Virus record (IMG/VR): IMGVR_UViG_3300045988_087221
DNA length: 64,000 bases
Origin: a virus
Strand: one strand, 5' to 3'
The translations under genes and the position numbers were made by a program. This document shows, in pieces, positions 8,501-49,059 of this stretch. Position 1 is the first letter of the stretch; each line of letters opens with the position of its first letter. The notes below the pieces were generated by a model, which had not been told where the DNA came from, did not search any database, and was given only the letters and a program-made list of their open reading frames with translations.

Positions 8501-9063
8501 AGACTGATACTTCAGCTTCTTCCTTTGGAGGAAGAGGTTTAATGGCTTCTAATATGCGTTATCTTGAGGATAGATGGAAAGTACAGATAAATCCTTTATT
8601 AATTACCTATAAAAATGAGTATGAAAGAAGGGATTCTACTAAGGCTTTATGTGCCCCAGAAAATTCTACTTGGAAAAATGGAGCAGGTACTAGAGCAGGA
8701 GATAAACTACCTCCATTACCTTTATATAATTCACCTATTCCAGATGCAGTAAAAGAAAGAGGCGAAATAGCCATTCCAGGATATTCATCTTCTGTATTGA
8801 CTGGATATTCAGAAACTACTGAAGGTAGAGATAATGCAATGTATAATTTATATAAGGTAGATTTTGAGAATGGAATACATCCATTTGATACATCCTCTTG
8901 GTTAGATGATGTGAATATTTATAAGTATAATTTTGGAAATGCTCAAAATAGAAAGGAAACTGATATGAGAGATAAATTTATAAAAATTAGAATTAGATAT
9001 TCAGGTAAAGAACTAGCAATAATTGATTTTATAAATACTATATATCAAGTTAGCTATGCATAA
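2506..9063 (+). CDS. Giant virion/tail-associated structural protein (2185 aa) with an internal Gly/Ala-rich hydrophobic segment; TAG-recoded
   Basis: ATG at 2506, TAA at 9061..9063. Track ORFs 3742, 5113, 5863, 6676, 7216 and 8542 are all in frame 1 and separated only by TAG. Compositionally coding throughout. No family recognised. Confidence 0.7.
4564..4846 (+). other. Gly/Ala/Thr/Val-rich hydrophobic (glycine-zipper-like, putative membrane-inserting) segment inside the 2185-aa protein
   Basis: Translates as KIGKIAAITAGVVALGAATVFTAGAAGALVAGSTLAGAVTAGSTTLGGILVAGGAVTTGLGLATGVAGASAIIAVGAGTAAGLITAAIATG. Its locally higher GC creates the spurious antisense ORF 4524..4736. Confidence 0.6.
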
Positions 9064-21600: not shown

Positions 21601-24600
21601 ACACGTCAAATTGAAGCTCTTAACGATTAGAAAGATGCTGAGTGGGTTAATAATATAATGTAGTAGCTAGCTGTAGTAGGTAATTAGTTAGACCCAATAG
21701 CAGCAGGAACATTAAAGAAACTTATTCCTAAGAGAATTAAAGATGTATTAGCTAGAAAAATATAGTTGGCACCATTAAGTAATGAAGTTAAGAGTATTTT
21801 GGGTAATCTTAATACAGATTTAAGTAATACTAAGGAAGTATTAGATACTATTAAGAATAGTGCTTTAGCTAAAACTAAGAGTTTAGTTAAATAGAAAGCA
21901 GCAAGTATTCCTAAAGTTTATACAAATTTTAAAGGAGAAGAGTTAAATCCCGAAGATTTATTTACGATTGATGGGATAGAAGATATGACTATTTAGGAAT
22001 TAATAGACAATCCTTCTTAGTTATATGATATTGACGATGATTAGAAGTAGGATATTATTAATCAACTACAAGCTATTACTGATCCAGAATTATAGGATTA
22101 GATATAGAATATCTTAGCTAATATAAATGATCCTCAAGCTACTATATAGAATCTTAATTAGTTATAGAAATCAGCTCCTTAGTATAAATAGAAAATAAAT
22201 AGTTTATTAGATTTATATGAATTTAAAATATCTAAGGAATAGTCTGATAAAGTAGTTAATAATCTTATTGATTTAGCAAGTATAATTAATCCTGATACTA
22301 GTATATCTTCATTAGTAAATGATGATATGGGAATCTAGGATTAGTTAGATTCAGATGTTGAATCATATGTTTCAACATTAACTCAAGGTGTAAATAATGA
22401 AGTAAATTCTTTAGTTGCAGATGTAGGTAACAATGCTATAGTTAAATTACATAACTCCATATAGAGTACTATTAAGAATCCAGTAATTGAATTAGTTAAA
22501 TCTCTTGCAGGAAAAGTTCTTGATAAAACTCAAATGCCTGATGTTATTGATACTTTAACTAAATTAGACACTAATTTTGATGAAGTTGAAAATATTGGAG
22601 AATTAGTACTTGATGGAGAGCAAATGAAAACTCTTTAGAATACTAGAGATGCTTTGGCTATGGTAGCTACATATTTATATGCAGCTTCTAGTACTCCTAC
22701 AGGTAACAATGTTATAGGACATAACAAAGTAATAAATGAGTATGCTAAAAAACATAGTGACGCTGTTCAAAACTGGGAAGAACTTCCTGAAATTGATGAT
22801 GATTATGCAACTATATATTAGGAGCAACTTAATTAGTTTATAAAGACTCTTGATGCTTGGATTGATTTATCTAATAATAACGATATAAATAAGAGAAGAC
22901 AATTTGAAGAAACTGATAAAGCTTTAACTAGAAGTTTTAATGGTTTATGGCAAGCTAATAAACAACATTTTGTTATCGATGTAAAAGATAAACATTATAA
23001 CTTGTTAGAAGGTAGTTTGGATGATAATGTTCCAGATGTTTCTCTATTTAATTATGAAAAGGCTTTTTATGGTAATTTTTAGAAAGCTCTATAGGAATCA
23101 GGAATGTCTGTCTCTGAGTTTTTAAAAGAATCTAATATTCTTGACAAACTAATTAGTTTTAATTAGTTAGGAGATTAGAGAAATACTCGATTAAACCCTA
23201 AAATGTAGTATGGAGATATGTCAGAATATGACAAACTCCAATATTTAGCAACTATATTATCACTTAATCCAGTTGATTTTTATAACTTTTTAAAAACTTC
23301 AGTAGGATAGAACTCTGATAAAGCACCAATAGCTAGTCAGGAATATGCTTCAAAAGTAGCTATTGCTTAGACTACTTAGACTTATAGAGATATAATGAAA
23401 TATGCTTTTGATAAGTCTGGAAGTAATTTGTATAATGCTAATAATACAGTAATAATTACTGGTGATGCTGGTAGTGGAAAAACTTCTGTAGTAGGTAAAT
23501 CTGTTATTGATTTTCTAGGACCTGAGACCAAAGTACTATGTGTGGGACCAACTTCTACATAGGCTTAGGGATTACTTACCTCATTTGGAAGAGGAAAGTC
23601 AATGGATATTGAATCCTTAATGAGAAAACTTTTAGGAGACACAGTTTGGGCAGATTTAAAATCAGATTTAGATATAGAGTATAAGCCAAGTAAAAACTAG
23701 TTAGAGAAAGATTCTGAATACTTTAGTTATTCTGCAGGTGATTTTGCTTAGACTAAACTTAAAAAAGACTTTACGTTTAATTAGTTAGATGAGATTCCAA
23801 GTATATTAGCTATAGATGAAGCTACTCATATCCCAGCTCCGGTACTCCAAGTTTTAGATACTTATATGTAGAAAAATGGAGGAACTTTAATGTTACTTGG
23901 AGATGAAAAATAGAAAGGGTATTATAATAAAAATAATGCTATAGGCAATATGAGACCTGTAGATTTATTTGCTTCTAGAACTCCTGAATTAAGTGTATCT
24001 TTACGTGATAATAATATTTAGAAACAAGCTAATTTGAACAGCGTAAAGACTATCTTATCTTAGGCTATTACAAATATGTATGAAATGTCAGAATCTGATT
24101 TATCATCATATTGGAAAACTATTAATCCTTTACTTTCTAAATTGAACTTTAGAGTTTATAATTAGAATACTTTAGCAGGTGATTTAATTACCAAGACTTT
24201 ATCAAATGATACCATTAATAAATTAAAAACTTCTACTAATGTGGGATTCATTGGAGATACGTCTAGTGCTGCATACTAGGCTATGAAACAAGCAGGTATG
24301 AATCCTACTGTATTATCCAAGGATTAGATGTAGGGTTAGGAGTTTGAATATGTAGTAATTGATCAACCATTCACTAAACCCGATGCAGATTTCCATATTA
24401 GAGACTTTTTACAAGATTTATATACTTTAATGAGTCGTGGTAAAACTGCTTCTATTTTTATCGATAATGGATTAAGTAATATCATAGGTAATAATACTCA
24501 AGATGATTATACTGCTAAAGCTCCTAGTCTTAAAGATAAGATTAATGGAAAAAGTACTATAGAGTAGCTAAAAGAACGTAAATTATCTATATTAGATTAG

Positions 24601-27600
24601 TTAGATTTATCTCCTATTGAAGGTTTAAATGAAACATCTAATTAGACTACTTAGTAGGCTATAAATCCTACAGATTTTAAAGCACCTGAATCTTTAAATA
24701 TAGATAAAGATACTGAAGAAGCTGTTAATTAGTTAATTGATTCTGAAGAAGAAACTAAAGATTCACATGAAGTTGAAAATTCAATAAAAAGTGAATTTAC
24801 AGTAATGTCTTGGGGAGATTGTACTTTAGTTGGAGCTAAAGCTGTGGAAGAAACTCATAAAGGTAAAAATGGTAAAGAGTATAAAGGAAATGCATGGCAT
24901 TTTGGACCCGATTAGAATGGGGAGTTACGTAATATATCAGCTTTAACAGATTAGAAATCAGTTTTCTGGTATACAGATAAGCAGACTTTAGAAAAATAGC
25001 TATATTAGGTAAAATCTGCTTTGATTTTTAATCATAGTTATGATGAAACCATTTTAGGTACACATACTAGAGTAATGCCAACTTGTATAACTGACAACTT
25101 TAGTAAAGCTGATTGGGATGCAGGCACTTATGAATTAGAGATTCGTTCTGTTGAAGGGGAAATTCAACCCTCTTTTAAGCCTATGCCAGAAGTAGGTATG
25201 ACTTATAAAGGAAATAAGTATGTGGCTAATATTATATTTAAAGTTAAAAATAAAAAAGGACAAATATGTAAATTTGACTTAGCAGGTATTAATAATCCTG
25301 AGACTTTAGCTAGCAATTTAAGTAAAATAAAAGACAGAATTAGCCAAGAACTTTCTGATCCAACTATTTCTAATGAAAGAAAATCTAAATTACAAAATAT
25401 CCTTAGTACAATCGAAAATAGGTCTTAGAAATGGGCTAATTTGTTTGATTCTTGGATAAACAAATATAATAAAGAAGGTAGTTTTTCTATAGATATAAGT
25501 AAAGCAATAGTTAGATAGAAACATACTTGGTTTACTAAAAGAACTGGATCTGAAATAAGACTGGGAGGTAGAATTGACCCTAATGCTGTTGATAACACTA
25601 AGGATTTTAATAATATGAAAGACAGAAATCCTGGATTTGTATTTTCAGAAGTATATACTTATGCAGCTAAAGACCCTACTCTATTGAATATTGACCCTTC
25701 CTTAAAAGGAAAAGCAGTAGTATTTGTTTCTTCTGATACCTTATTAAAACCAGAAGATTTAGTTAAATAGTACATAAAACAAATTCAAGATCCAGAACAT
25801 AATTAGCCTATAGTTAGAATGATTAGACTTCATAATTATGGTATGACCTTTAGTCAAATGACAAGTAATGAATTCTGTAATAAAATTTAGGGAGGAGATG
25901 ATACTCGACTTCCTTATAGAGCTAATTATCATGGAATTTAGATGTTTGTTTCCTTATGGAACTGGAGAGCTGCTTTAAGTAAATTTAATGAAGCTTTAAA
26001 TAATTGGATGTAGGAAAATTAGTACGATGCTAAGAAACTAGACACATTAATTAAAGCTCAAAATTACTTATTTAATAATAAATAGGTAGATGCAGACACT
26101 TATTTAACTAGTAAAAAATTAACTAGAGCTGATTTAAATAATTTAGAAAAGTTTAACTAGGAAGTATGTAAAGATATACCTACCTTTAGATTAGGTTACT
26201 CAAAAAAACATGACTTTCATGTTTAGCGATTTAAAGTTGCAGGTAGTTAGGCTTATAGAAATAAGTCTGAAGCTAATTTAATAGTTATAACTCCTGATAA
26301 AGCCAAGCAGTTCTATTAGTTAAGTAATAGAATATTAGGAGCCATATGTCCTTCTCCTTATGTTGATACTTTAGGTCTTTAGTTATTACATCCTGGTGCT
26401 TAGAATCCTGATGGAACTAGAGAACCTGATACCCCTTGGGAAGAAAATGAATTTATTGATATAAATAGTGCTGATCATTAGAGAACTCTTTCTGGTTTAT
26501 TTACGTCTGATTTAAGAATTGTAGAAACTAAAAAGGATAAATCTAAAATAGACATTATTTATAAACAAGGTGAGTAGTGGTCTGCAATCCCCAGATATTT
26601 AAATAATATCCTTAGAACCGTTACATTCTTTTAGTATAATCCTGATTAGCTTTCAGGCACCTATACAGAATCTGCTAAAGTATCTTGGGATGATAATGGA
26701 ACAAAGAAAACAGTAAGTACTTAGATAGGGGATTTATTTGGCAATGGAGGATTATTAAAAACAAGAAATGATACCAAAGTTAAATCAGGAGAACATCCTG
26801 ATAGAAGTCTTGCAGATATGTTCGACTTAATGTTCCATGGAACTACTGATGATATTCATAGAAAATATGATAAGAACAATCCATTAATGAGAGCAGATGA
26901 TGCTAGATTCCCTTATGGCTTTTTTATTAATCCTGATATATCTAGAACTAAAGAGAGTGCTAGTTCTACTGATATAATTAGTATTAAAGCAGGAAAAGAA
27001 ACTGTATTTTATCCTATTAAAACCTCTGATGAATTATTTACTTCCGACAATGATTTAAGAGCAGCAGGAATTGATTTATCTATTGATGAACTGTTAAATA
27101 ACACAGTAAGTCCAACTAATTCTACAAATACTTAGACTAGTACTGCTCCAGCAACTACTCAGCCTAAAATAATTCCATTAGAATAGAGAATGCCTGTAGC
27201 TGCAGAAGTTCTTAAACAGGTTAATGACTCAGGTTTTAACTTTGATGAAGATACCCTAGAAGAGGCTGTTGATAAATTAAATGAAATTACTAAGAACTCG
27301 ATAATAGATGTATTTAAAACAGTTGGTTAGGACTAGGCTTTAGAGCTGCCTATAAATTACACTTATTAGAAAACTGGAGATGTTAAGAAATAGACTTTAA
27401 AGGATATAATTAGTTCTTAGGTTCAAGGAGAATTTAATTTAAAAACTAAGAGTATTAATGGAGAATCTAAATTAATAGTGGAAAATAACGGAACTGAGTA
27501 CGAATTAGATACTGAAACCTGGACTCTTAAAGGCGATTAGGTATAGAAAGTCAATAATAAATTGGATGAGTTAATTAACTTTAACGGTAAAGAAGTAAAA

Positions 27601-27840
27601 AAATCAGTAGCCCTTAATTAGCTATTAAATAGTTAGGAATTTAAAAATAAACTTGACGATACTAGCACTCTAGATGAATTTATATAGAAATTAAACACTC
27701 TTATAAATAATGCTAAAACTCTTAATGAGGATTAGATTTCTGAGGCATTACATAAATTGAAAGATGACCTTAATTATGTAGATATAACTGGACTAATATA
27801 TGATGATTATCCAGAGTTATATAAAATATTTGAATGTTAA
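18619..27840 (+). CDS. Giant protein (3073 aa) with an embedded SF1 (RecD/Pif1-like) helicase core and hydrophobic N-terminal segments; TAG-recoded
   Basis: ATG at 18619, TAA at 27838..27840. Track ORFs 19162, 20020, 20422, 25021 and 26818 are all in frame 1. I read 20.7-23.5 kb codon by codon and found only TAG interruptions. Confidence 0.7.
23461..24480 (+). other. SF1 helicase motif set inside the 3073-aa protein
   Basis: Walker A is VIITGDAGSGKTS (23461..). Walker B is ILAIDEATH (about 23803..23829). Motif III is LLGDEKQ, with Q = TAG at 23911..23913. Motif V is MQGQEFEYVVID, with the Q of QG = TAG at 24331..24333. Motif VI is LYTLMSRGKTASIFI. Confidence 0.7.
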
Positions 27841-30800
27841 TGGCAGTATGTAACTTGCTAAATACCTATAGTCCAGCAGATATAGGTAGAGCCTTAATGA
27901 CTTATTCGCGTGACGAGAATGCTGATAAATTTATTGATAGATTTATAAACAAATAGGGAATACCTAAAACAACTAGATATAAATTAGATTCGTTAGATTC
28001 TGAAGATAGTATTTAGAAATCTATTCAAGGATTTAATAAATCTATGGATGATGCAATAGCAGCACTAACTTCTAGAAAACCGGATTTGCTTCCTAAATTT
28101 AATGAATTAAGAAGTAAAGTATTAGAAACCCTTCATGTAGACTTAGACGAACACTCGTCTGGGTCTACTCCAGAGGGAGATAGTTCTATTGAAGCTAAAA
28201 CTACTTTTGAAATATTAGATAATAATTAGTTAAGTTTAGATGAACATCTTAAAGAAATATATGGTACTGGAGCATATAATATTATTAGACAACTAAAAGA
28301 AGGATTTAATGACAACCTTTTTGCAGCATGTTATTATAATGTAGCTAATGGAGTCTTAGTTGTACAAGCAGATAATGTGTTAAATTAGAATCTTATTAAT
28401 CTTAAAAATAAATATTTTAAGTAGATAGTAGAATATTTAAAGTCAGTAGATTCTAAGTATGAAAAATTACCTAATGAATTTGTAAATGAAGAAGGATTTA
28501 TAGGAGGTAAGTATTTTTATGTAATGCAAGCTTTTTATGATCATATGAAACATATTCCTAATTTACAATAGACTCTAGATAGTTTATCCTCTAAAAGACT
28601 TAATAATTATGATAAAGTATCTAATACACAGGCATATACTTAGGTAGTAAATGTTTTATTACAAAATCCGGATTTTAAAAAGACCCTATTTAATATTTAT
28701 AGGTCTGGAAAATAGCAAGATAATGTAAGGAATACATTGTATTTAGCAGACCATTTGTCTTCCTATTTCTATGAAGTTAAAAGATTATTAAATACTAAGA
28801 AATATCAAGATTTATTAGATACTGAAATAGACGGAAAAACAATCAAAGATATATTAGATAGTTTTGAATTAGAAAATAATGATTTATTAAATGCTGCAAA
28901 TGCGTATACCTCTCTAATTCATTTTGATGAAATGCTAGTAGACTCTTTAGGAGATGCCATTGACATCAAACAGGGATAGAAAGGAATGGAGTTTGGAGAC
29001 CCTACCAAATATTCATACAAATAGGAAACAGCTCATTAGAAAAAAAGTTGGCAACAAAGTGAATCAGTAGAATCAGAAAAATATATAGCAAATGTAGTTA
29101 AAGCATTCTTTAGTTAGATAAGAGTGTTAAATTATAAAACTGACCAATTTTAGAATAGAAGATTAAATAGCACTTCAGTTATTGTGGCTGCCAGAAATCT
29201 TATTGATGATGTTCTATATAATAAACTTGATTTATTGCAATGGGCTAGGAATAACGATAATAGGGAATAGGCTGTTAATGATTTTGCTTTAGCTTTAATA
29301 GATTTACATGAGAATCCATAGAATTAGTTATATAAAGCCTTAAGTTTGTTATTTGAACCGATAAAAGGAAGCAGTTAGAGATTAATTGACACAATTCCAT
29401 TAAATAATACTACTGCGACTACCGAATATGATTTAAATATATTATATTCATTATATGAAGCTGCTTTAAATGAAAGTAATCCAAATTCTTTAAGATCTTA
29501 GGAATTAAAAAATGCTAAACAGATAAACGGTACAGTTGCTTAGTTGTCTGCTGAAATATCGGGTATTATAGATAGGAATACTACTATGCATTATCTTGAA
29601 ACGTCTTTTGATGGCAAAACTGGTATGGTTCAAATTAAGGTAAAGAAAAGATACTTTAATAATGCAGATACTTACAAAACTAGGGTAAGAATTAATAGAA
29701 ATATTAATAATGCTTCAGCTTCTGAACGTGAAGCTAGACGTAGTAAGTGGTAGTTTGACACTATTAATACTGTAGATGGCAATAAACAGTATTCTATAGT
29801 AATTGGAGATGAAAAAGTTACTTATATATCTACTCAGATATTAAATTCCGATGGTAAATATTAGAATAATGAATTATTTAATGATTTAAATAAAATTGAT
29901 TTAACTTCCTTTAGATAGAAATTACTTAGAAATGAGGAACTCACTGAACGGGAAAGAAAATTAAAAGATCTATTATCTTTTATTGATGACCATTTAAGTT
30001 TAAAGATTCTAGATAACCCTTCATAGAAAATTCAGCAGCTTGAGATATTTCAGTAGTTAAATAAGGATAATTTAAAGAATTTAACTACGTTAGCTATTAA
30101 AGCAGCCTATGTTAATTATCTCTATGATGAGGCTGGAGACTAGGATTTTGCATAGTATTTATCTAATACAGGTAAAGATGGAATTTATCGAATTTATGAA
30201 AATAATAAAAAGAGCAAACTGTTTACTAATATGTTTAATAACTTAAAAATTACAGTTGCTTCTTTTAAGGATAGTATACTTGAAGCTTGGAGTGACGCTT
30301 ATTCCATGTAGTCAGGAGAAGCTTCTAAGGCTACTACTAAAAATAAAGCTGGTGATAATATTCCAAATAATAGTGTAAATAAATTAGGTACTAATATTCA
30401 TCATTATTTATTTAAATAGAAAGATACTAATGCAAATAGTTTGTTCTTTGTTCAAGATTCTACTAAAATTAAAGGTATTCAACATGACTTAGAAGCTACT
30501 TCACAGTGGCAAGAGTCTAAATAGTTAAAGAATTTTTCGTAGGGAGAGTTATTCTTTCATTCTGTATTTAATAAGTTCTGGGGAAGCTATTTACAATATG
30601 GAACATTTATAATATAGCCTACAGCTTATTCTGATAAAACTACTTTCATTAATTATGAAATTACTAAGAATCTATTTGGAGACGATATTATAAATGATGA
30701 AAATCTAAAAGACACTATAGTTAAAGAGACTATTAACACTATAGGCACCTTTTATAAAAATGTATGGAATTCAACTAAAAATAAACTGCAAAGACTAACT

Positions 30801-33800
30801 GATGCCTATAATAATTAGCATGGGACTAACTATACATATCAATAGATGTTAGCTAATATTACTGAGCCAGAATTAATTAAACTAGCTGATTCCATTGGCG
30901 AGAAAGTTACTTTAGATGCTGATTATCGAAAGGCAGGTAAACATTTAGCTGTAAATGAACTCTTATAGTATTATGCCGAAGAGTTATATGCTAACAAAGG
31001 CACTTTGAATGCCTTCTTAGAGCAATAGAAACATTTATTTGTACAAAACTTTCTTGATAATAACTGCACTTATCAAGTAGTTAATTTAAATGATTCAGTA
31101 GATAATTATTATGGTGAAAAGTTACCTGAATCTATTTCTAATAATCCTATCATGTAGACTATTTTAGGATTATATAAGAATGACTCTAAGGGTAGAAGTG
31201 CTTTCTTTAAAAACTGGGTAGATGCTAAGACAGGTAAGTTGATTTTAGCTAAATAGAATGGTTTAAACATTATATCTAATACTAAAATAGATTCTAGTAA
31301 AGATATTGTAGTAAATCCATTGCTTGATAAATTCTTCTATGTTGAAGGATTCTTAAGTAATAATTTACGTATGAGTTTAACTGGTTCTGAGATTAATCAC
31401 CCGGATAAAGCTAAACAAACCACCTATAATTTAGTAAAATCTTGTGATAATTCTGTAGATTTCTTTACAAAAACTAAAATGTAGGTAGATGAAAATACTT
31501 TCTAGCAAGCTAAAGAGTTTTTAAATACAACTAACTCTGTTGCTGACTTAAAATATACTACAATACCTGCTAATATATCAAGCTTTATAAATGATATTTA
31601 TCATTAGTCTATGACTATGATAGCTAATGTAGCTTAGGGTACTTAGTTTAAGCGTAATGTAATTATACCTGCCACTTTACAGTACTGTCTACCTAAAGTT
31701 ATAAATGGTATTTCTGCTAAAACTAAATGTGCAGTAATTAGAGACGAGGGCGCCTCAGTGTATAACTATAGAGGAGACCATGAAGATGATATTGATTCTG
31801 CGGATGGTTCTGCTCAAATTAATCCATTCTAGTCTATTTTGGAGAATAAAGCATTAGGTTCTCAGGCTGTAGGATTTATTAAAAAACCTATTTGGCATGC
31901 TTATGACCCAGTAACAGGTACTGCATTCTTAGCTAAGTTTGCAACCGATACTATCACTAATGAAACTATGCGAGCTTCCTTAAATTCTCACACTAGTCTT
32001 TTTAAAATGTTTAAAAAGATGACTAACTTACCATGGAAGGGTGATGTGGATTTAATGCAATCCATAGCTTTAGGTAATCTTGATGAATCTAAAACTTTGG
32101 CTACAGTTAGGTGGTTTAATAATGTTATTCTTGGAAATGCTGACGGAATTAAAAACAATTAGTTATACTATAAAAATAAATATGGTGACTAGGTTCAAAT
32201 TACTGGTTTTAATAAAACTATAACTAAAGAAGGAAATACTCTATACTATACTACAGAGGCACCTGTAATTAAGGGTATAGAAGCTCCTTCGCATAAAGTG
32301 TATCATGTATTTTATGATTCCCCTAACTAGAAAAGTAATCATATTACTTTTGATACTTGGCAATAGGCATAGGCATTTTTAATGGATTAGTCTAATCCAG
32401 AAATGACTAATAAACATACCATTAATTCTTTATTTGAATTACATACAGCTTTAGGAGGTATTAATTGCATTGATAGTAAGGGAAACTACTCAGAATTTAG
32501 TAACGAGGTGGTTGTTAATTTTATGAATGCAGTTGGTCATAAAGTTAATGAAGGTACTGACAATGTTCCTCTTGATTAGGATAATTATATATAGCCTCTT
32601 AAATAGTATCATATTGGTTATGCTTTAAATAATACAGCAGTAAAAAATGGTGCATAGAATATTAATCAGTCTAGTGCTTGGTATGATGATAAAGACCTTA
32701 GTTACTTTGAAGTAGACTCAGATGGTCTTGGAATGTAGATGAATGCTGACCATGATATTATAGACTCTGAACTTACAGAGTTTTCTTAGGTTATTACTGC
32801 TACATCAGCATATGGATTTACCTATGATAACACTGATGAAATATTTTAGGGTCTTGGAAGAGCTTCCTTAGCTACTACTAAGAAAATGAGTAAAGCTGTA
32901 GATACTTTTATTCAGAATTTTGAAGATCCAAAACAAGCTTAGTCAGATTTATATGACGCTATTGGTAGAATTGTAATGAAATCTTCTTCTATTAAAGATA
33001 GGGAGAGTTTATAGCATGTAATTATGTAGGCAGTAGAATCTGTATTCTATAAAAGTAAAAATCACTAGCAAGATAGTTCTAAAATACCATTTAGTGACCC
33101 TAATGTATATTCTGATTTCATTGCTACATTAGCCAGTACAATTAACAAAGAAGCTATCAAACGTAAGCACCCAGGTTCTGGATGTGTTATGGTTCCTGCT
33201 TATCATATGATTCAATATTTTGAATTTGGTGGTGAAAAATTAATGGCAACTGACATCTTAAAAAGAGCATAGGAAGATTATAAATAGTCTCTAATTACTC
33301 TATTATAGGGTCATCAGGATTATACTCCAGAAACTAATTCTATAGGAGAGTTTTTTATAAATGGACAATCCATTAAATAGTTAGAAGATTAGGTACAAAA
33401 ATTAAAAATAGAAAATCCTGATAGAATTGATACATAGGATATAACTAGTTATAATCATTAGCTTATTTAGAGATATTTAAATAGAAAGCAACAAGAAGTA
33501 GAAATAAGACCTGATAAAAGTTGGTTTATGCCTTCCGATAATGTAAATATTATTGACTCTGAAGGCAAAGTTCATACTGTAGAATTAAATTCTATGGATG
33601 ACTATTACAAGTTTAAGGATGGAATTAACGATATAGAAATAGCTAATAATGTATCTATAAAAGTTGATTATAAAAAAGGTACATATAAAATAACTTCACC
33701 TACAGCAGAGTTAAATTTAACTAAGGTTGATGGTAAATGGATAGCAGACTCTTCAGAATTATCTGCTATAGCTACTTAGTTGGTTGGTAAAGTTATACTA

Positions 33801-36800
33801 CCAAATGGTGAGGTAGTTACCGGAGAAAGACAGTAGTATGATTTTAAATATTAGGAAAATATAGTTAGACCCCATGATTTAAGACCTTCTTTACTTAGAT
33901 GGTAGGATTCTGAAACAGGAGAATATATGAATATATTCGATTCTCCAGTTATTAGAGACGCTTATACTAATCCTGAAGGTAAAAAAGCTAATCACCAATC
34001 ATTAGTTTAGGCTGAATTAAATAATATCCATAATGGAACTTATACTGATAGATTCGGTAACGAGAAAACTATTATGTAGGGAAGTTTACAGAATTATGCT
34101 GCTGAACTTGTGATGTCTAATATCTATAAAGATAAGTTTGGAATAGAAAATGAATCTCTTGCTGAAGTTCTTAAATAGGGAGAGGACTATTTTTATAAGA
34201 AGTTTAATAAAATAAATGCTCCTGCTAATACTAGTTATGATTTTGCTTTTGTAAAAGATACAGGTAATACTACTTTAATTACTTTAACACCAGTTAAAAA
34301 TAATGATTATATTTAGTATAAGGGATTTGAAGCCAGTTAGTTAAGCACTAATGATAAAGAAGAAATTTATTTAACTAGAGGTAATAGGGATTTATTTAAA
34401 GTTGGTAAATGGATTAACGCTCCAGATGTTACATATAAAGATGGGGAATTTATAAATAATGATGGTATAGTATTAGATCCTAATCAGTATAGATTAAGGG
34501 ATTTAGATGATCCAACTTCTGTTCAAAGACGTGTTGATTACATTAAATAGTATGTAGAAACTACTAAATAGATAGTAAAAGGAAGAGTTGTTTATAAAAC
34601 TAACACCCTTTATGAAATAGCTCCATTATCTGATTTTGAGATAGCTTTAGGTAATAAAGAAGATGCAGCTAAATAGAGAGCTTCTCTTGTTGCTAAAATT
34701 TATAGAGCAGATAATTATAAATTAGCTTAGGTAAATAACTCTAAAACATATAGTAAGGATGCTTTTAATCATATTAAGTCTGCAAGTAGTTTCTTCTTGG
34801 GAAATTAGTTAATTGGTTAGGATGTAAAAGACTTATTATAGACTTAGTTAGATAGTATTACAACTACTAATCAATAGAAATCTAAAGATGAACTTATAGC
34901 TTTATCTAAAGAAAATAAGGCTACGTATAAAGAATTATTAGAAGCTTTCTTAAGAAAAGAAGCACATAAACGATATATTAGTTTCTTAGATTCTTAGAAC
35001 TTTATAGCTGCTCGTATTCCTGCTCAATCTTTATAGTCCTTTATGACTATGAAAAATATAGCATGGACTGAAAACTCTAAAAATATATCTTATGTAAGTC
35101 ATTTCTAGACTTATTTATAGGGTTCTGACTATGATATTGATAAGGCTTATATAATGGGACAGTCTTATGATGAAAATGCTGCTTATATAGGATGGAGTCC
35201 TTTATTTAATTATAATAGTGTAGAAACTCTACAAGCTAGTAAGACTTTACCTATTCCTAAACGTATCGTTGTATATAAAGGTGATTATGATATATCTAGT
35301 GAGATAAATACTTTAATTAATTTAGCTGAAAACTAGGATGTAAATGAAGTATTATAGAATGTGCATAAATTGGGTAATGCAGCTTTCATTAGATAGTTAT
35401 CTAAAATAATTAGAATTGCTGAACAACATAATGGTATTAATTATTCAGGTGATGCCAAGGTATTAAACACTTTAATAGAAACCATTAATAAACATGAGAA
35501 TTACCTTATTTCTGATAATGTAGCAGAATCAGCATTTAAAAATGTAGCTTCTGCAAACATTTATTAGGTATCACATGATATTAGAAATCGTGATTAGGCA
35601 TATACAGCTATTGCTATGGGTATTATGCGTAAAGCCGCTGATAATTCTCCAAAAGGTAACTAGGCAGCTACTTTAAATATGCTTAATCCTATGACTAAAT
35701 ATATTATGTAGTATCAAAACCTTGTGGGTAAGAATGTGATTAGTGTGGCGGCTAATGGCGAAAAAGTATGGTTTAATACTTTTTATTATTGGACAAAAGT
35801 GCTAAAGTCTGGTAATTAGGAGGCAATAAATAAATTAAAATTTTAGCATACTTATAAAAGAATAAATGGAAGAGCTAAGGGCACCCCAATAGAATAGACT
35901 ATTAATCATATTCCTGATTTAAATAAGTATGATGAACAAATAAAGTCTACATTATAGAGTCAATTTGGGGTTCTTGATAATGAAGATTATAAATATGTTG
36001 ATCAATTAATCTCTTAGCTTCTTTCTGCAGCCACTGATAATGCTAAAGAGCTTATTCTTGCTAAGATAAATGCAGGAACTAATTTTGCTAGAATGTATGT
36101 ATATGGAATGATGATGGGATTAAACATAAACGATTTAGTTGCATTTATGACTAGTCCAGTATCAGAACTCATAGATTAGTTAGCTAATCCTAATATGTTC
36201 TAGAATGAAAGTGGTAATGCATCTATGGCTATTAATTTAGCTTAGGGTATTGTTGGAGTTAAGAAATTCTTACATGGACAAATAAGAACAACTTAGGAGG
36301 ATATCGATACTGGAGAGCAAAGAACTACTTGGATAAATAAAAATAGATATGTAACTAACTATTTAAAAAATACTGATATTTATGATTTAGTTAAATAGAA
36401 TGCTGGATTGTCTGAGGAAGAAGATATTAAAGGGTTAGGAAGTATTATGCAAGCTTATATTAATTATGCTATAATTAATAAGGATGTAGATTTAACTGAA
36501 TTAATTGATACTGATGATGTTGAAGTTAACTCTTATCTTAGATACTATCAAGATTTAACAGATAAATTGAGACAGGTTAGAGCACAGTATAATAAAGATT
36601 CTGATTTTAAAGGTGATATAGAAGAATTTAGAAATCTATATAATGATGCCTCTGAAATTTCTACAATATCATCTGCTTGGTTAGGACTTAATTAGGGATT
36701 ACCTACTTCTGAGTTAGATTTACTTTCTAGAATGAATCGTATGTCTAAAATAGTTAGTGACCGAGAGAAAGCTCTAAATATGAATGTATCTAAAATATAT

Positions 36801-38138
36801 CCTAAAGAAGGGGCTAAGGAAAAGGAAATTTAGGAAGCAGAATAGGCTAAAGAATAGTTAATTAATAGACTACACGAAAATAATCCTACTTTGGACCCAG
36901 AGTATATAGCAAATGAGTTAGATATTGCTCACGAACAAGATTTAATTAATAACTTTGATATATATAAATATTTAGTAGATGATGAATATAGAAAACAAGC
37001 ATCTGATTACTATGATATAATTAAAAGTACTGCTAATGTGTTTGAAATGATGGAGTAGATTCCACATTATAAATAGATTTTATAGTTGTTTAAGTCACTT
37101 GTTGTAGCAAATAATACCTTTGCATCCAAAAGTAGATTAGTTAATAAGCTATTGGCTAATTCTGAAAGTGTTAATGATAAATAGTTAAATGGAGTAATTA
37201 AATATGTGGATAAGTTAAATACATTATCTTTTATGAGAACACTCACTCCTATAGCTGTTAATTAGGTAGATGGATTTGATCCATATTTTTAGAGCATTAA
37301 AGTCAACAAAATCGATCCAAGTACTATAAATGGTATAGCTACTTTAAAACATTGGGTTGAGCATGAGTTTCTTAGTTACTTAAAGGAAAATTACTCTAAT
37401 AATTCTTTAGTTAAACATCTTACCTTAGTGCCTTATAATAATACAGAGGTATTAGCAACTGATATAGATTTGCTTAATCCTGATATAACCATATAGTCTA
37501 GAGAGGCTTATGATGATATATTAAGAGGAATGGCTGATTTTGAGACTAGATAGTACTAGGGGGATTATACTATTGCAGATATTTTACAAATGTATAATAT
37601 AGCAGTAAACAATAACTAGTATGGTGGTGAACGTCTTACTACATCTTTTAAAGTTTGTACTAATCCTAAAAATATTTTAAATTAGTATTTAAAATTTATA
37701 TCCGATTAGGACTGGGATATCGAAACAGATTAGGAATATAACTATACTGATTATTAGATAGCAGCGGCTCCTATAATCAGTACTTATGCGGAAAGCTACC
37801 ATTAGGAGCCTTTTGTTAAAGTAAATAACCCTATTCGGAGATATGTACTCAAAAAATTAGATAGTAATAACTAGTACTAGGAGTATGATTTAATTCCACC
37901 GCCTGTACCAGATGAAAACTATCAAAGTAAAATGAATAGATTGCAGAATTTTAGTGAGAATAGTCCTTTAGAAATGCCTAATATGCATAATACATTATTC
38001 TTAACTAAGACTGTGGATTTTGATGGTAAATTTGAGGATTTAGATGCAGATGAACAAAAATAGACTATAGATGGTATTAGAAACTTGTTAACTTAGTATA
38101 TAACTTCTAATAAAGCTTCACTTATAAAAGACTGTTAA
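27840..38138 (+). CDS. Giant protein (3432 aa) with two double-psi beta-barrel RNAP-like motifs: candidate crAss-type virion-packaged RNA polymerase; TAG-recoded
   Basis: ATG at 27840 (TAATG coupling), TAA at 38136..38138. Track ORFs 28044, 28737, 29544, 31839, 33528, 35154 and 36408 are all in frame 0. Confidence 0.7.
31803..31829 (+). other. Possible beta-subunit-like DPBB segment (ADGSAQINPF)
   Basis: DDIDSADGSAQINPFQSILENKALGSQ loosely parallels bacterial beta ...dG.pvDiilNPlgvPSRMniGQ. This is tentative and by eye only. Confidence 0.35.
35007..35141 (+). other. Beta-prime-like DPBB catalytic segment: AARIPAQSLQS ... GSDYDIDKAYIM
   Basis: It parallels NRAPTLHRLGIQAF ... NADFDGDQMAVH of multisubunit RNAPs and the DYDGD motif of QDE-1-type enzymes. 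D-Y-D-I-D is encoded at 35127..35141. Confidence 0.6.
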
Positions 38139-38141: not shown

Positions 38142-40727
38142 ATGGGATGTGATATAAAAGTATTAGTTAATAATTATGTAGACGGTAAATTATAGACTTA
38201 GGAGCAAACATTATTAAAAAATACTGATGAGGATATAGATATAAATAGAGCAGTTGAATTAATTACCCAATTGCCTAAAGCTGAACGTACTAAACTAGCT
38301 GCTCTTTTTAGGGCAGCTAGAGTACAAGCTTTAAAAGAATCAGATGTAGAAAAACATGAGTTTATTAGTAATACTACTCTTGGATAGCTTTAGGATAAAT
38401 ATCCAGATTTAAAAGAAGCTTTTCCTGATTTAGAGATTAATGAGAATCATACTATAGTAGCTTGTAATCAAATTTAGTTAAATGGTTCTAAGTATTTTGG
38501 TAGGGTGATAAGTCCTAGTGGTTCAGATATTTTCTTTATAAACGGATTTTATGGTGCTTAGGACTTATTTAATTATCTTGATTAGAGATAGAAAATAAAG
38601 AAAGCTGTCAATAACAACACACTTAGAGAAGATTTGAAAGAATATCAAGAGGAACTAAATTCTATAATAGCTAAATATAATATTACTGGGGAAAAACTTT
38701 TATTAGATTATTTAGATAATAAATCTTAGTATAAGCCTTTTAAAGATTCAAATGGAAATAATATAATTCCTTCTAAGACTCTTAATAATATATTATGTAA
38801 GATATAGGACATATATAATTCAGACATGGGTAAGTCAGACTTAGAATTAGCTATAAAGAGCGTAAAAGATCCTAAACATAAAAATAGATTTGAATATAAA
38901 CTTACTATGAGAAATTTATATTCGGCACTTTCTAATTATATACAAGATATGCCTTCTTTTTAGGATTTTAATAGTTTAAATTAGGAAGATTTATAGGCAT
39001 TCTTACATAATATATTCTCATTTGACCCTAATTTAATGAAAGCAAAAGTTTCTAAAATAATAGGTGGGGAAGCAAAGGAAGTTATTAAAGAAGCCGTAGA
39101 TAAAAAGATTCCACAAACTGAAATTAAAAAGAAATGGAAAGAATTATAGGAAGAGTGGGATAAATAGGGAGTTAAACTAGATTCTTTAGCTAAAACTATT
39201 AAGAACAGTCCAGAACAGGTAATTGGATTATTAAAAACAGCATTAGCTAATTTAAACCCTGATATATCTATTTAGGATGATAAAATATAGGTTAAATATA
39301 AAACTAAAGAAGAAGTATAGTAGAAAGAATCTGCTAAATAGTTAATTTTATCTTTTCCATATTCGTCCTTAGGTGAGGTATATAATTTTGGTTATGATTC
39401 TAAATATTTATTTAGTCCTGTAAAAGAAGAAGAAGGAGTTGATACTGATGGTATGTACCATGGAGTTTATATTTATAAATATTATAATCCAAGTGCTAAA
39501 GTTACTCACTATGCTATATCTAGAAGTATAATATCTCCTAATTCATATTCTCAAACATTTAGCTCTTTAGAAGCAGCAAAAGCTAAAATAGATGATTGGA
39601 ATGCTACACAAACTCTTAGAGAAGCAGGATTATACTCAATTAAGATGCACCCAACTGCTCCACGTACTTCTAAAATAGAATTAGAAGGAGTTAAAGAGGG
39701 GTAGATAATAACTACCCTGGATATTTAGCTACCTAGTATATCTAAGTTACCTGAAATATTTAACTAGGTATTAAATAGTACCTTAGCAGATTTTAGAAGA
39801 GTATTTCCTGATATAGAAGGTATTGAAACTTTAAATACCCCTGAGAAAGCTGCTGCTTTTGTTTATTTATTTACTAAGGGATTAAAAACAGCTGAAAATA
39901 AAAATACTGATATTAATTAGTTGATTAAAAGTAATTAGAAATTAGGTAAGGAGATAGTAGATTAGATAAATAAAGCTGAAACCAAAAGTTATCTAGTAGA
40001 AGAAATGCGAGGTAAAATAGCTACTCTCAAATATCTAGAAAATAACGGTAATAAAATAGATATTACTGGTAAATTTGGGGATGAGGCAGCTACAAAACCT
40101 ACTACAGCTTCAATGGAATAGGCAGTCCAATATTTTAATGAAAAGTTTGGTATAGCTATAAATACTATGTCTCAAACTGAACTAAATGACTTTGGGTAGT
40201 AGAATAAAATTGATGTAAAAAATGCCAGAGCCTTTATATATAATGGACAAATTTATATAAATAGTAGTAATGCTAACGTGTCTGATGTATTTCATGAGAT
40301 GGCTCATATATTTTTAGGGGTTTTAAAGGCTAACTATCCTGACAGTTATCAAGCGGTTATAGCTAAATACTAGCAAAAGCCTAAATTTAGAACTAATCTA
40401 GACTATATTAATGAAGCCTACACTAACTTTGCAATGTAGGATAAATTAGAGGAGTGTGTTGCAGATATGATAGCTGATTAGATGTTTTAGAAATAGAGTT
40501 TACTTAAAGAATTTAAAGGTCAGGATTTTCTAGAAGATTTCAAATTCATATTTGACAATTTTCCTCAAAATGTAGTAAATCCTATAGCTGAATCAGGACT
40601 ATCTTTTGACACGTTTATGAAAGAAGGAATTTCAGAAAATTCAGAAGCTATAAAAAGAAATATGAAGATAGCTAATTTAATTAGATAGAATATAGAATTA
40701 GGTAAAATAAAAGAATTTGGTTGTTAA
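38142..40727 (+). CDS. Virion-associated protein (861 aa) with an HExxH zinc-metallopeptidase-type motif; TAG-recoded
   Basis: ATG at 38142, TAA at 40725..40727. Track ORF 39453 is in frame. VSDVFHEMAHIFLG has HEMAH at 40293..40307. Confidence 0.65.
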
Positions 40728-45753: not shown

Positions 45754-46068
45754 TTAATTATTTTGTAATTGTCTTATCCTCTCTTGACATATATGAATAA
45801 TCTTTTCATAATCTTCTATTCTAGCTTCACTCTCAGTCTTTCCTTGTAATACTTTAGTTCTATATATACGTTTAACTACATCAGCATCCCAAGGATTTAG
45901 TTTCCAATCTTGCCATACCGACCAAGGTTGAATTATTGATTTAGAATAGTTACTTTCTCCAATATTTTTATCTCTTACATTAGAATCATCTGGAAGTATT
46001 CCAATCTTTTGCAAATATTTAAAAAGATTAAGATTATTATTTATATATTCAGGAGTTATTAACTGCAT
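45754..46068 (-). CDS. DUF3310-like phage protein (104 aa)
   Basis: ESNYSKSIIQPWSVWQDWKLNPWDADVVKRIYRTK resembles the DUF3310 pattern (nYy...iqp.dvi..w.l.f..gnviKYi.R). Recognised by eye only. Confidence 0.55.
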   Translation of the reverse strand: MQLITPEYINNNLNLFKYLQKIGILPDDSNVRDKNIGESNYSKSIIQPWSVWQDWKLNPWDADVVKRIYRTKVLQGKTESEARIEDYEKIIHICQERIRQLQNN

Positions 46069-46640: not shown

Positions 46641-46651
46641 TTATAATATAT

Positions 46652-49057: not shown

Positions 49058-49059
49058 TT

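What the first reader, a model, noticed from the sequence alone, without database searches (positions are those of the whole stretch)
27840..38138. A 3432-aa recoded ORF carries two-barrel RNA polymerase motifs (crAss-type virion RNAP candidate)
The segment AARIPAQSLQS...(about 30 aa)...LQGSDYDIDKAYIM (35007..35141) mirrors the beta-prime DPBB pattern R-x-P-x-x-H/x...S followed by the metal-binding D-x-D-x-D. Compare NADFDGD in cellular RNAPs and DYDGD in QDE-1.

About 1100 codons upstream, ADGSAQINPF (31803..31829) loosely resembles the beta-subunit DPBB segment dG..D.iiNP.

A single polypeptide with both barrels, encoded at the distal end of the virion block, matches the virion-packaged RNAP described for crAss-like phages. 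At 3432 aa with dense TAG recoding, most of the protein outside the barrels is unexplained.
Basis: partly seen in the sequence, partly recalled or inferred. Interest (0 to 1): 0.7.

Follow-up and report, generated by a model that had tools for sequence, protein, structure and literature searches.

The report
Giant recoded crAss-type virion RNA polymerase
This 3432-codon gene, readable only if TAG encodes an amino acid, encodes a very divergent relative of the RNA polymerase that crAss-like gut phages carry in their virions, a known kind of enzyme in a poorly annotated lineage.

Summary
Frame 27840-38138 (+) has 130 in-frame TAG codons, no TGA, and one TAA, the terminator.

The main interpretation holds. 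The motif ARIPAQSLQSF...LQGSDYDIDKAYIM is identical in all 117 full-length homologues. It closely parallels phi14:2 gp66 (YRIPNQ...GSDFDIDKMYVM) and crAss001 gp50.

- Profile-profile comparison aligns aa 2386-2774 with gp66 1316-1653, which covers the DxDxD barrel half, bridge helix and trigger loop (97.8%, E 8e-13).
- It also aligns aa 1592-1790 with gp66 1055-1246 (E 8.5e-7).
- An AlphaFold model of aa 1700-2899 has 6VR4 (gp66) as its only significant PDB match (E 1.3e-6). Bacterial beta' chains follow, below significance.

The first-barrel claim (ADGSAQINPF) is not proven. The block is nearly invariant and lies where colinearity puts the beta-like barrel. The sequence match to gp66 is not significant, and Foldseek found nothing.

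Compared with gp66, the DxDxD barrel appears split by about 290 and 270 residues.

Yutin et al. 2021 already described DxDxD-bearing giant proteins in large, TAG-recoded crAss-like (Zeta-group) phages. This is therefore a new member of a known kind.

In relatives, a group I intron sits exactly inside the DxDxD codons. The window copy has no intron.

The parts
27840..38138 (+). 3432-codon ORF (TAG read as Gln) encoding the giant RNAP-containing protein
   Evidence: 130 TAG, 0 TGA, and one terminal TAA. P0162 is a 99.1% identical full-length protein from a 184-kb contig. 117 full-length homologues of 3000 aa or more were retrieved.
31635..31874 (+). Conserved block aa 1266-1345 (QGTQFKRNVIIPAT...KCAVIRD...DSADGSAQINPFQSILEN), candidate first half of the beta-like barrel
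   Evidence: K1271, R1272, D1302, D1322 and G1323 are 98-100% conserved over 143 cluster representatives. QFKRNV is present in 117 of 117 full-length homologues. Homology to the gp66 TDAQ block is not significant.
32586..32657 (+). aa 1583-1606, YIQPLKQYHIGYALNNTAVKNGAQ, with near-invariant K1588 and K1602; candidate Lys pair of the beta-like barrel
   Evidence: K1588 is 99% and K1602 100% conserved. VKNG aligns with gp66 GVKVG inside the significant connector hit. QPLK aligns with gp66 QPLK (1008-1011) only as a 9-column colinear match with P 0.34.
32613..33158 (+). aa 1592-1773, region homologous to the gp66 stretch that spans the connector between the two barrels
   Evidence: hhalign of a 143-sequence profile against a 9-sequence crAss RNAP profile gives Prob 91.5%, E 8.5e-7, window 1592-1790 to gp66 1055-1246. 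The gp66 connector is residues 1095-1238.
33159..33239 (+). aa 1774-1800, KRKHPGSGCVMVPAYHM, first strands of the beta'-like (DxDxD) barrel
   Evidence: It aligns with gp66 KLKTNGGSFIQLSNFGL. An HMM of aa 1740-1795 hits 8 of 9 crAss RNAPs at 137-172 aa upstream of their DxDxD. G1779 is 100% conserved.
34101..34175 (+). aa 2088-2112, AELVMSNIYKDKFG, possible middle element of the beta'-like barrel (counterpart of gp50 LEVYMPAYSRKFY)
   Evidence: The match was made by eye only. The HMM test found nothing. The block is conserved within the family (consensus).
34995..35174 (+). aa 2386-2445, second half of the beta'-like barrel: ARIPAQSLQSF...LQGSDYDIDKAYIM
   Evidence: This is the start of the hhalign hit with Prob 97.8%, E 8.4e-13 to gp66 1316-1653. 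It is conserved in all homologues.
35127..35141 (+). DYDID, predicted Mg2+-binding aspartate triad (D2430, D2432, D2434)
   Evidence: It is the counterpart of gp66 1361-DFDID-1365. In gp66, each D-to-A substitution abolishes RNA synthesis. In relatives this is also the group I intron insertion site, at 35132/35133.
35688..35810 (+). aa 2617-2657, bridge-helix-like long helix (NPMTKYIMQYQNLVGKNVISVAANGEK...)
   Evidence: Model 2 has a 41-residue helix, H918-958. It aligns with the gp66 bridge helix 1529-1559.
35997..36119 (+). aa 2720-2760, trigger-loop-like segment (ISQLLSAATDNAKELILAKINAG)
   Evidence: It aligns with the gp66 trigger loop 1598-1636 (AFLNAFVDNAKDPYI). SAATDNAKE is present in 117 of 117 full-length homologues.
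18619..27840 (+). Upstream neighbour, 3073 aa, with an SF1 helicase domain; occupies the position of phi14:2 gp67
   Evidence: Pfam AAA_30, AAA_19 and UvrD_C_2 match at aa 1607-1947. No similarity to gp67 was found.
38142..40727 (+). Downstream neighbour, 861 aa, with an HEMAH motif; occupies the position of the phi14:2 gp65 zincin-like protein
   Evidence: The motif was read from the translation. There is no Pfam hit.
2506..9063 (+). 2185-aa protein related to crAss001 gp44 / phi14:2 g071 (virion structural protein)
   Evidence: BLASTP gives E 6e-4 to phi14:2 g071 and E 0.006 to crAss001 gp44, against a small database.

Best explanation
The ORF encodes a single-chain, two-barrel DNA-dependent RNA polymerase of the crAss-like phage type (phi14:2 gp66 / crAss001 gp50 family), in a lineage that reads TAG as Gln in its late genes.

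Shown here:
- The protein shares with gp66 the second half of the beta'-like double-psi barrel and the D-x-D-[IV]-D metal site (D2430, D2432, D2434).
- It also shares a bridge-helix-like helix (aa 2617-2657), a trigger-loop-like segment (aa about 2720-2760), the stretch of gp66 that spans the inter-barrel connector (aa 1592-1773), and the first strands of the beta'-like barrel (aa 1774-1800).

Inferred:
- The beta-like barrel lies at aa about 1266-1345 plus about 1583-1606. Near-invariant K1271, R1272, D1322, K1588 and K1602 would contribute to the active site.
- Relative to gp66, both barrels are interrupted by lineage-specific insertions. These are about 230 aa in the first barrel, and about 290 and 270 aa in the second.
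- By analogy with gp66, the enzyme is made late. Its 130 TAG codons cannot be read until the phage's code switch is in place.
- It is then packaged in the virion with the neighbouring giant proteins and ejected into a Bacteroidota host with the DNA. There it transcribes the TAG-free early genes, such as the - strand block at 45.7-63.8 kb.
For: ORF integrity and TAG as a sense codon.

Shared motifs: GSDYDIDKAYIM against gp66 GSDFDIDKMYVM and gp50 GSDFDVDKLYIM, with colinear weak BLASTP hits.

Profile comparisons:
- hhalign family profile against crAss RNAP profile: Prob 97.8%, E 8.4e-13, window 2386-2774 to gp66 1316-1653.
- Broader profile: Prob 91.5%, E 8.5e-7, window 1592-1790 to gp66 1055-1246.
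- Positional test: an HMM of aa 1740-1795 lands 137-172 aa upstream of DxDxD in 8 of 9 crAss RNAPs.

Structure: the AF2 model of aa 1700-2899 has pLDDT 81.7 and pTM 0.72. Its top Foldseek PDB hit is 6vr4_A, E 1.3e-6, probability 1.00, 453 columns. Bacterial beta' chains and a vaccinia RNAP chain follow at E 0.13-0.9.

Conservation: GSDYDID, QFKRNV and SAATDNAKE are present in 117 of 117 full-length homologues. Invariant Lys, Arg and Asp residues occur in the first-barrel region across 143 clusters.

Genome context:
- A gp44/g071-like protein lies upstream.
- PolA, Thy1 and ligases are on the opposite, TAG-free strand.
- Close relatives sit on 140-225 kb viral contigs.

Literature: gp66 is a virion RNAP that transcribes early genes. 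Its DFDID aspartates are essential, and position 4 is Ile or Val in all crAss RNAPs. DxDxD giant proteins occur in large, recoded Zeta-group crAss-like phages.
Against: - No Pfam, PHROGs or PDB sequence hit for the protein or its family profile.
- The model of aa 1255-2454, which contains the proposed first barrel, has no PDB fold match (best E 0.29). It has only weak matches to crAss giant-protein segments in BFVD.
- Sequence correspondence of the first barrel to gp66 is not significant.
- Virion packaging, template specificity and activity are inferred by homology and gene position only.
- The window contains no capsid, portal or terminase gene that I identified, so lineage assignment rests on the RNAP, one gp44-like protein and genome style.
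Confidence: 0.82

Rival explanations
1. It is an active two-barrel RNAP but is not virion-packaged. It would be expressed inside the cell for middle or late transcription, like P23-45 gp64 or the non-virion RNAPs of jumbo phages.
For: Packaging was not tested here. Phages can encode both virion and non-virion two-barrel RNAPs.
Against: - The gene sits in the TAG-recoded + strand block, next to a gp44-like virion protein and giant neighbours, as g066 does in phi14:2.
- 130 TAG codons make early translation implausible.
- Its closest characterised relative, gp66, is a virion protein.
Confidence: 0.1
2. It is a polyprotein. The 3432-aa product would be cleaved into an RNAP core (about aa 1150-2900) and separate N- and C-terminal cargo proteins, possibly by the neighbouring HExxH protein.
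For: - Drobysheva et al. note that in some crAss-like phages the RNAP and its neighbours are fused into a polyprotein that is probably cleaved, and that gp65 carries a zincin-like protease domain.
- Other crAss RNAP-bearing ORFs are 4200-4800 aa.
- aa 1-1140 and 2900-3432 match nothing known.
Against: No cleavage sites or protease domain were identified here. The 861-aa neighbour has only an HEMAH motif and no Pfam hit. This rival is compatible with the main explanation rather than an alternative to it.
Confidence: 0.3
3. It is a structural or ejection protein that retains a relic polymerase motif and no longer polymerises RNA.
For: Most of the protein has no recognisable fold match. Model 1 has no PDB hit.
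Against: - All three aspartates are invariant across 117 full-length homologues, as are the bridge-helix block QN.VGKNVI..AANGEK and the trigger-loop block SAATDNAKE.
- Lys, Arg and Asp residues in the first-barrel region are invariant across 143 clusters.
- A relic site would not be held this tightly.
Confidence: 0.04
4. The long ORF is an artefact. TAG would be a true stop, and the region would be many short genes or non-coding DNA.
For: Under the standard code the frame is cut into about 130 pieces. Many database entries are fragments.
Against: - There are no TAA or TGA codons in 3432 codons.
- Homology is continuous along the whole length to relatives, including the standard-code MT835470.
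- Gln is enriched at TAG sites.
- The TAG-free opposite strand shows the effect is gene-set specific.
Confidence: 0.01

Closest known systems
Cellulophaga phage phi14:2 gp66, virion-packaged DNA-dependent RNA polymerase (PDB 6VR4; Drobysheva et al., bioRxiv 10.1101/2020.03.07.982082)
   Same: - A single chain carrying the catalytic motif GSD[FY]DIDK.Y[IV]M, with Ile at position 4.
- Colinear connector, bridge helix and trigger loop (hhalign E 8.4e-13 and 8.5e-7).
- The only significant Foldseek PDB hit.
- The gene sits among giant proteins downstream of the gp44/g071-like gene.
   Different: - 3432 aa against 2180 aa.
- No BLAST-level similarity outside short motifs, and not found by tblastn with gp66 at E 1e-5 among the listed hits.
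- The beta'-like barrel appears split by about 290 and 270 aa insertions.
- The distance from the first conserved block to DxDxD is 1109 aa, against about 400 aa in gp66.
- The gene is TAG-recoded.
- The cleft-blocking domain was not identified.
Bacteroides phage crAss001 gp50 (putative RNA polymerase), with gp47 and gp49
   Same: YRVPTE...GSDFDVDKLYIM. The blocks QQNMTGAALIGIYAN and LAASVDNVKDP are colinear with the window blocks.
   Different: In crAss001 the transcription genes lie on the opposite strand from the tail genes. Identity is below 30% even in the best 80-residue stretch.
RNApB' DxDxD giant proteins of Zeta-group crAss-like phages (Yutin et al. 2021, PMC7886860)
   Same: - Large genomes. 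The paper gives 145-192 kb; relatives of the window are 141-225 kb contigs.
- TAG or TGA reassignment confined to late genes.
- PolA or PolB, and Thy1.
- ORFs disrupted inside the DxDxD motif, seen here in relatives as a group I intron.
   Different: Membership of this window in the Zeta group could not be checked, because TerL, MCP and portal are not in the window. The paper gives motif-level annotation only, with no structure or domain map.
Neurospora QDE-1 and cellular RNAP beta'/beta (two-barrel superfamily)
   Same: The R-x-P...D-x-D-x-D half-barrel pattern. Beta' chains fill Foldseek ranks 2-10 at E 0.13-0.23.
   Different: - No Pfam RNA_pol_Rpb1, RNA_pol_Rpb2 or RdRP domain hit.
- Position 4 of the motif is Ile, not Gly.
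- The matches are below significance.
Coliphage N4 virion RNAP
   Same: Functional analogy only (my own knowledge): a giant polymerase packaged in the capsid and injected to transcribe early genes.
   Different: N4 vRNAP is a T7-like single-subunit right-hand polymerase, not a two-barrel enzyme. No similarity was found or expected.

Membership tests
crAss-like phage virion RNAP (phi14:2 gp66 family) | Catalytic D-[FY]-D-[IV]-D motif in the extended context R[IV]P...GSD.D[IV]DK.Y[IV]M | tested here: met
   DYDID at aa 2430-2434. The context is almost identical to gp66 and gp50 and conserved in 117 of 117 full-length homologues.
crAss-like phage virion RNAP (phi14:2 gp66 family) | Profile-level homology across the catalytic core (DxDxD barrel, bridge helix, trigger loop, connector) | tested here: met
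   hhalign gives 97.8%, E 8.4e-13 and 91.5%, E 8.5e-7. The hits are colinear.
crAss-like phage virion RNAP (phi14:2 gp66 family) | Fold similarity to the gp66 crystal structure 6VR4 | tested here: met
   Foldseek E 1.3e-6, probability 1.00, 453 aligned columns, for the model of aa 1700-2899. The model was made on the 99.1% identical P0162.
crAss-like phage virion RNAP (phi14:2 gp66 family) | A second, beta-like double-psi barrel in the same polypeptide, N-terminal to the connector | tested here: inconclusive
   - Highly conserved blocks with invariant Lys, Arg and Asp lie at the expected place.
- hhalign gives P 0.29.
- Positional HMM tests gave 3 of 9 hits in place, and the reciprocal test scattered.
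- No PDB fold hit for the model of aa 1255-2454.
crAss-like phage virion RNAP (phi14:2 gp66 family) | Gene located in the late or virion block beside giant co-packaged proteins, one with a zincin-like domain | tested here: inconclusive
   Position and giant neighbours fit, and a gp44/g071-like protein lies upstream. The downstream 861-aa protein has only an HEMAH motif and no family hit. The upstream neighbour is a helicase-containing protein with no detected similarity to gp67.
crAss-like phage virion RNAP (phi14:2 gp66 family) | Presence in virions, and Mg2+-dependent DNA-templated RNA synthesis of early genes | not testable with these tools
   Requires proteomics and biochemistry.
Cellular multisubunit RNAP beta' (Pfam RNA_pol_Rpb1 domains) | Match to Rpb1 domain models and the NADFDGD motif | tested here: not met
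   No Pfam hit at E up to 1 apart from a weak DUF3850 hit. The motif is GSDYDID. Beta' chains appear only as sub-significant fold hits.
Eukaryotic RNAi RdRP / QDE-1 family (Pfam RdRP) | Match to the RdRP model, or a fold match to QDE-1 | tested here: not met
   No Pfam hit. No QDE-1 entry is among the top 50 Foldseek PDB hits for either model.
Zeta-group crAss-like phages (Yutin 2021) | Placement in the TerL, MCP and portal trees | not tested
   Those genes are not in the window. Only circumstantial features agree.

The most novel reading that the evidence does not exclude
In this lineage both catalytic barrels of a two-barrel RNA polymerase would be interrupted by large inserted domains. These are about 230 aa in the beta-like barrel and about 290 plus 270 aa in the DxDxD barrel. 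The core is flanked by about 1140 N-terminal and about 530 C-terminal residues with no match in PDB. If these modules are functional additions (for example promoter or template recognition, passage through the tail, or self-inhibition before packaging), this would be the most elaborated single-chain two-barrel RNAP known. It would also be a distinct structural subclass of crAss-type virion RNAPs.
Probability: 0.3. Interest if true: 0.5.

Novelty: new member of a known kind. Interest (0 to 1): 0.3.

Why it matters
The enzyme class is known, so the finding mainly provides annotation. None of the homologues listed from the three searches of the 90%-identity cluster collection carries a Pfam domain, and none has more than a 'hypothetical protein' label. 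The exhaustive search, whose library holds no names or annotation, found 941 clusters at 50% identity.

This work can label that family as crAss-type RNA polymerase. It provides a residue-level map of the metal site, bridge helix, trigger loop, connector and barrel halves.

The family seems abundant in metagenomes. Single 90% clusters hold 1132 and 1810 member sequences.

The map also explains why gene callers so often cut this gene at 'GSDY'. A homing group I intron sits inside the catalytic codons in many relatives.

The insertions in the barrels and the unexplained termini are reasonable targets for structural work on how giant virion polymerases are packaged and ejected.

Tried and rejected
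**Searches that found nothing**
- PHROGs, Pfam and PDB phmmer on the full protein: no usable hit. The only match was DUF3850 at E 0.007, below its cut-off.
- hmmsearch of family alignment A1 against PDB sequences: nothing.

- The search for homologous proteins with all 3432 aa timed out.
Substrings of the 99.1% identical P0162 were used instead.
- My first MAFFT plus hhalign script timed out.

**The first barrel**
- Foldseek of the aa 1255-2454 model against PDB gave no match better than E 0.29.
- Against BFVD it found family members. It found only weak matches to segments of crAss giant proteins, with probability up to 0.35, plus one unnamed protein at E 0.018.
- Restricted hhalign picked the DGSA and TDAQ blocks as the best match, but with P 0.29.
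- An HMM of aa 1258-1345 hit 3 of 9 crAss RNAPs at the expected offset.
- The reciprocal HMM of the crAss TDAQ block scattered over the family proteins.
- I therefore do not claim this barrel as shown.

**Other negative results**
- The AELVMS block as a barrel element is a by-eye match only, and the HMM test was negative.
- BLASTP of the neighbours against phi14:2 and crAss001 proteins gave only the gp44/g071 hit.
- There is no tRNA in the window, so no suppressor tRNA was found here.
- A literature search for 'Tinaiviridae', a family name recalled from memory, returned nothing.

Full report
**1. The observation**

Translating 27840-38138 (+) in frame gives 3433 codons with 130 TAG, no TGA and one TAA, the last codon. 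In DNA of about 29% G+C, a run of 3432 codons without TAA or TGA cannot arise by chance.

The start ATG overlaps the upstream stop as TAATG at 27838-27842.
- AARIPAQSL at aa 2390 (nt 35007).
- DYDID at aa 2430-2434 (nt 35127-35141).
- ADGSAQINPF at aa 1321-1330 (nt 31800-31829, 3 nt earlier than written).

The bare pattern D.D.D occurs three times in the protein and is not remarkable on its own. Conservation and context make the copy at aa 2430 special.

**2. The genetic code**

With TAG treated as sense, the whole + strand from 194 to 45250 resolves into eleven tightly packed ORFs. Six of them are giant: 2185, 1456, 3073, 3434, 861 and 1507 aa. They hold 525 in-frame TAG codons against 248 CAA and 60 CAG.

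The - strand genes at 45754-63783 contain no TAG at all, either as a sense codon or as a stop. At the window's TAG positions the standard-code relative MT835470 most often has Gln. That is 12 sites, against a background Gln frequency of 2.7%. TAG therefore most likely encodes Gln, as in genetic code 15.

No tRNA gene lies in the window. The - strand block encodes family A DNA polymerase with its exonuclease, Thy1, RNA ligase, DNA ligase, NUDIX and metallophosphatases. These are typical replication genes.

Yutin et al. 2021 describe strand- and stage-specific recoding for crAss-like phages.

**3. Relatives**

Direct searches of PHROGs, Pfam and PDB sequences with the protein find nothing. In GenBank phages only two unannotated human-gut records match both regions, at 30-35% identity: MT835470 and MT835492.

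IMG/VR holds 11 loci at 88-95% identity on contigs of 102-225 kb.

The large protein collections hold many relatives.
- 102 hits came from the DxDxD region, mostly fragments.
- 805 hits came from a profile. The best 120 were nearly all full-length proteins of 3300-3550 aa.
- One of them, P0162, differs from the window protein at 30 of 3432 residues.
- An exhaustive HMMER search with aa 1140-1800 found 941 clusters at 50% identity with E up to 0.001.

In the three cluster-collection searches, no listed homologue has a Pfam domain, and the only labels are 'hypothetical protein'. Two 90% clusters hold 1132 and 1810 member sequences, so the protein is common in metagenomes.

**4. Is it a crAss-type RNA polymerase?**

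Three lines of evidence agree.

*(a) Motifs.* The three proteins share the same extended catalytic motif:
- phi14:2 gp66 has YRIPNQ...GSDFDIDKMYVM.
- crAss001 gp50 has YRVPTE...GSDFDVDKLYIM.
- The window has ARIPAQ...GSDYDIDKAYIM.

Two further blocks are colinear. QNLVGKNVISVAANGEK matches gp50 QQNMTGAALIGIYAN. SAATDNAKELIL matches gp66 AFVDNAKDPYI and gp50 AASVDNVKDPVL.

Drobysheva et al. showed that gp66 is a virion-packaged DNA-dependent RNAP. Each aspartate of its 1361-DFDID-1365 motif is essential, and position 4 is Ile or Val in all crAss-like RNAPs. The window has Ile there.

*(b) Profiles.* I compared a 45-sequence family profile with a 9-sequence crAss RNAP profile built from gp66, gp50 and seven phages. 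This gave Prob 97.8%, E 8.4e-13 for window 2386-2774 against gp66 1316-1653. That span contains the DxDxD half-barrel, the gp66 bridge helix (1529-1559) and the trigger loop (1598-1636).

With a broader 143-sequence profile, window 1592-1790 aligns with gp66 1055-1246 at Prob 91.5%, E 8.5e-7. This stretch of gp66 spans the connector (1095-1238). It ends with KRKHPGSGCVMVPAYHM opposite KLKTNGGSFIQLSNFGL.

An independent positional test supports this. An HMM of aa 1740-1795 lands 137-172 residues upstream of DxDxD in 8 of 9 crAss RNAPs.

*(c) Structure.* An AF2 model of aa 1700-2899 of P0162 has pLDDT 81.7 and pTM 0.72. It contains a 41-residue helix at aa 2617-2657. Its only significant PDB match is 6vr4_A, the gp66 structure, at E 1.3e-6, probability 1.00 and 453 columns. 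Ranks 2-10 are beta' chains of bacterial RNAPs at E 0.13-0.23, and a vaccinia RNAP chain also appears.

All 117 full-length homologues keep GSDYDID, QFKRNV and SAATDNAKE.

**5. Anatomy compared with gp66**

In gp66 the first strands of the DxDxD barrel (about 1229-1246) lie about 115-130 residues before DFDID. In the window they lie at aa 1774-1790, about 640 residues before DYDID.

A conserved block AELVMSNIYKDKFG (aa 2088) resembles gp50 LEVYMPAYSRKFY by eye. If that correspondence is real, the barrel is interrupted twice, by about 290 and about 270 residues. The HMM test did not support it, so the two-insertion picture is inference. A large insertion is nevertheless required by the two significant alignments.

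**6. The first (beta-like) barrel**

K1271 and R1272 are 100% conserved, D1302 98%, D1322 99% and G1323 100% over 143 clusters. A second block downstream, QPLK...VKNG, has K1588 (99%) and K1602 (100%). Both blocks sit N-terminal to the connector, where the beta-like barrel must be.

VKNG aligns with gp66 GVKVG inside the significant hit. QPLK aligns with gp66 QPLK only as a 9-column colinear match with P 0.34.

The best local alignment of the DGSA block with gp66 is DDIDSADGSAQINP opposite EDVNQTDAQAWITP, with P 0.29. An HMM of aa 1258-1345 hits the expected offset in 3 of 9 crAss RNAPs. The reciprocal test scatters.

The AF2 model of aa 1255-2454 has pLDDT 75 and no PDB fold match. In BFVD it has only weak matches to segments of crAss giant proteins.

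The first barrel is therefore plausible and correctly placed, but it is not demonstrated. The specific equivalence to the beta 'DG..D..NP' segment is doubtful.

**7. Gene context**

The 2185-aa protein at 2506-9063 is weakly similar to phi14:2 g071 and crAss001 gp44. The upstream 3073-aa neighbour carries an SF1 helicase domain.

The downstream 861-aa protein has an HEMAH motif at the position of the phi14:2 gp65 zincin-like protein, but it has no family hit.

Other crAss-like phages encode RNAP-bearing ORFs of 4200-4800 aa. Some are annotated 'DNA helicase'. The size of the window protein is therefore not exceptional.

**8. Mechanism**

Shown here: homology and fold similarity of the catalytic core to a characterised virion RNAP, and strict conservation of the metal site, bridge helix and trigger loop.

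Inferred:
- The enzyme is translated late, because its 130 TAG codons need the reassigned code.
- It is packaged with its giant neighbours and possibly processed.
- It is ejected with the DNA and transcribes the TAG-free early genes.

**9. Comparison with the literature, and novelty**

Yutin et al. 2021 already mark 'RNApB'' DxDxD in giant proteins of crAss-like phages. This includes the Zeta group, with genomes of 145-192 kb, TAG or TGA recoding of late genes, and ORFs broken inside DxDxD.

This window fits that description, but I could not test membership because TerL, MCP and portal are absent. The finding is a correct identification of a divergent member of a known enzyme family. What is added here is profile and structure confirmation and a domain map.

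**10. Side finding: a group I intron in relatives**

Many relatives' ORFs stop at ...LQGSDY and restart at DIDKAYIMG, including proteins 96% identical to the window.

In IMG/VR locus L010, a 1097-nt insertion lies exactly between the TAT and GAT codons, equivalent to window 35132/35133.
- It follows a T and ends in G, the boundary nucleotides I take to be canonical for group I introns (own knowledge).
- It gives two sub-threshold Rfam group I intron hits, E 1.8e-5 and 0.004.
- It encodes a 231-aa ORF whose sequence suggests, by eye, a LAGLIDADG homing endonuclease.

MT835470 carries an insertion at the same site. The window copy has no intron.

Noticed in passing
L010 8904-10000 (IMGVR_UViG_3300045988_079570); L001 about 12175-13249 (MT835470); equivalent to window 35132/35133: Relatives, some 96% identical in protein, carry an insertion of about 1.1 kb exactly between the Tyr and second Asp codons of D-Y-D-I-D. 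It follows a T and ends in G, the boundary nucleotides I take to be canonical for group I introns. It gives sub-threshold Rfam group I intron hits and holds a 231-aa ORF that looks like a LAGLIDADG homing endonuclease by eye. This explains why many database ORFs end at 'GSDY'. The window copy has no intron.
   Followed up: partly
window 194-45250 (+) versus 45754-63783 (-): The genetic code is strand-specific. The + strand genes hold 525 in-frame TAG codons, more than CAA and CAG together. The - strand genes hold no TAG, either as a sense codon or as a stop. No tRNA gene lies in the window, so any suppressor tRNA must be elsewhere in the genome or come from the host.
   Followed up: partly
window 18619-27840 (+): A 3073-aa protein immediately upstream of the RNAP gene carries an SF1 (RecD/UvrD-like) helicase domain at aa 1607-1947. 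The rest of the protein is unassigned. Some crAss-like phages have the helicase and the RNAP in a single ORF, for example cr50_1.
   Followed up: no
window 38142-40727 (+): An 861-aa protein just downstream has an HEMAH (HExxH) motif near its C-terminal quarter. It occupies the position of the phi14:2 gp65 zincin-like protein, but it has no Pfam hit.
   Followed up: no
window 27826-27840, 38124-38138, 40713-40727; 38142-38150, 40727-40735: Three consecutive giant proteins end in Cys (...IFEC, ...IKDC, ...EFGC). The next two proteins begin with MGC. This may be coincidence, or it may be a shared terminal signal such as a processing or packaging signal.
   Followed up: no
window 2506-9063 (+): A 2185-aa protein is weakly similar to phi14:2 g071 and crAss001 gp44, which are virion structural proteins. 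It contains a long Gly/Ala/Thr-rich hydrophobic stretch around aa 690-770.
   Followed up: partly
window 10638-11300 (+): A 220-aa protein has a sequence (…SASGYFQFINSTRKQY…) that recalls lytic transglycosylase motifs. This was read from the translation only.
   Followed up: no
window aa 3222-3268 of the RNAP protein (nt about 37503-37643): A weak Pfam match to DUF3850 (E 0.007, 17 bits, below the 22.9-bit cut-off) lies in the otherwise unassigned C-terminal region.
   Followed up: no
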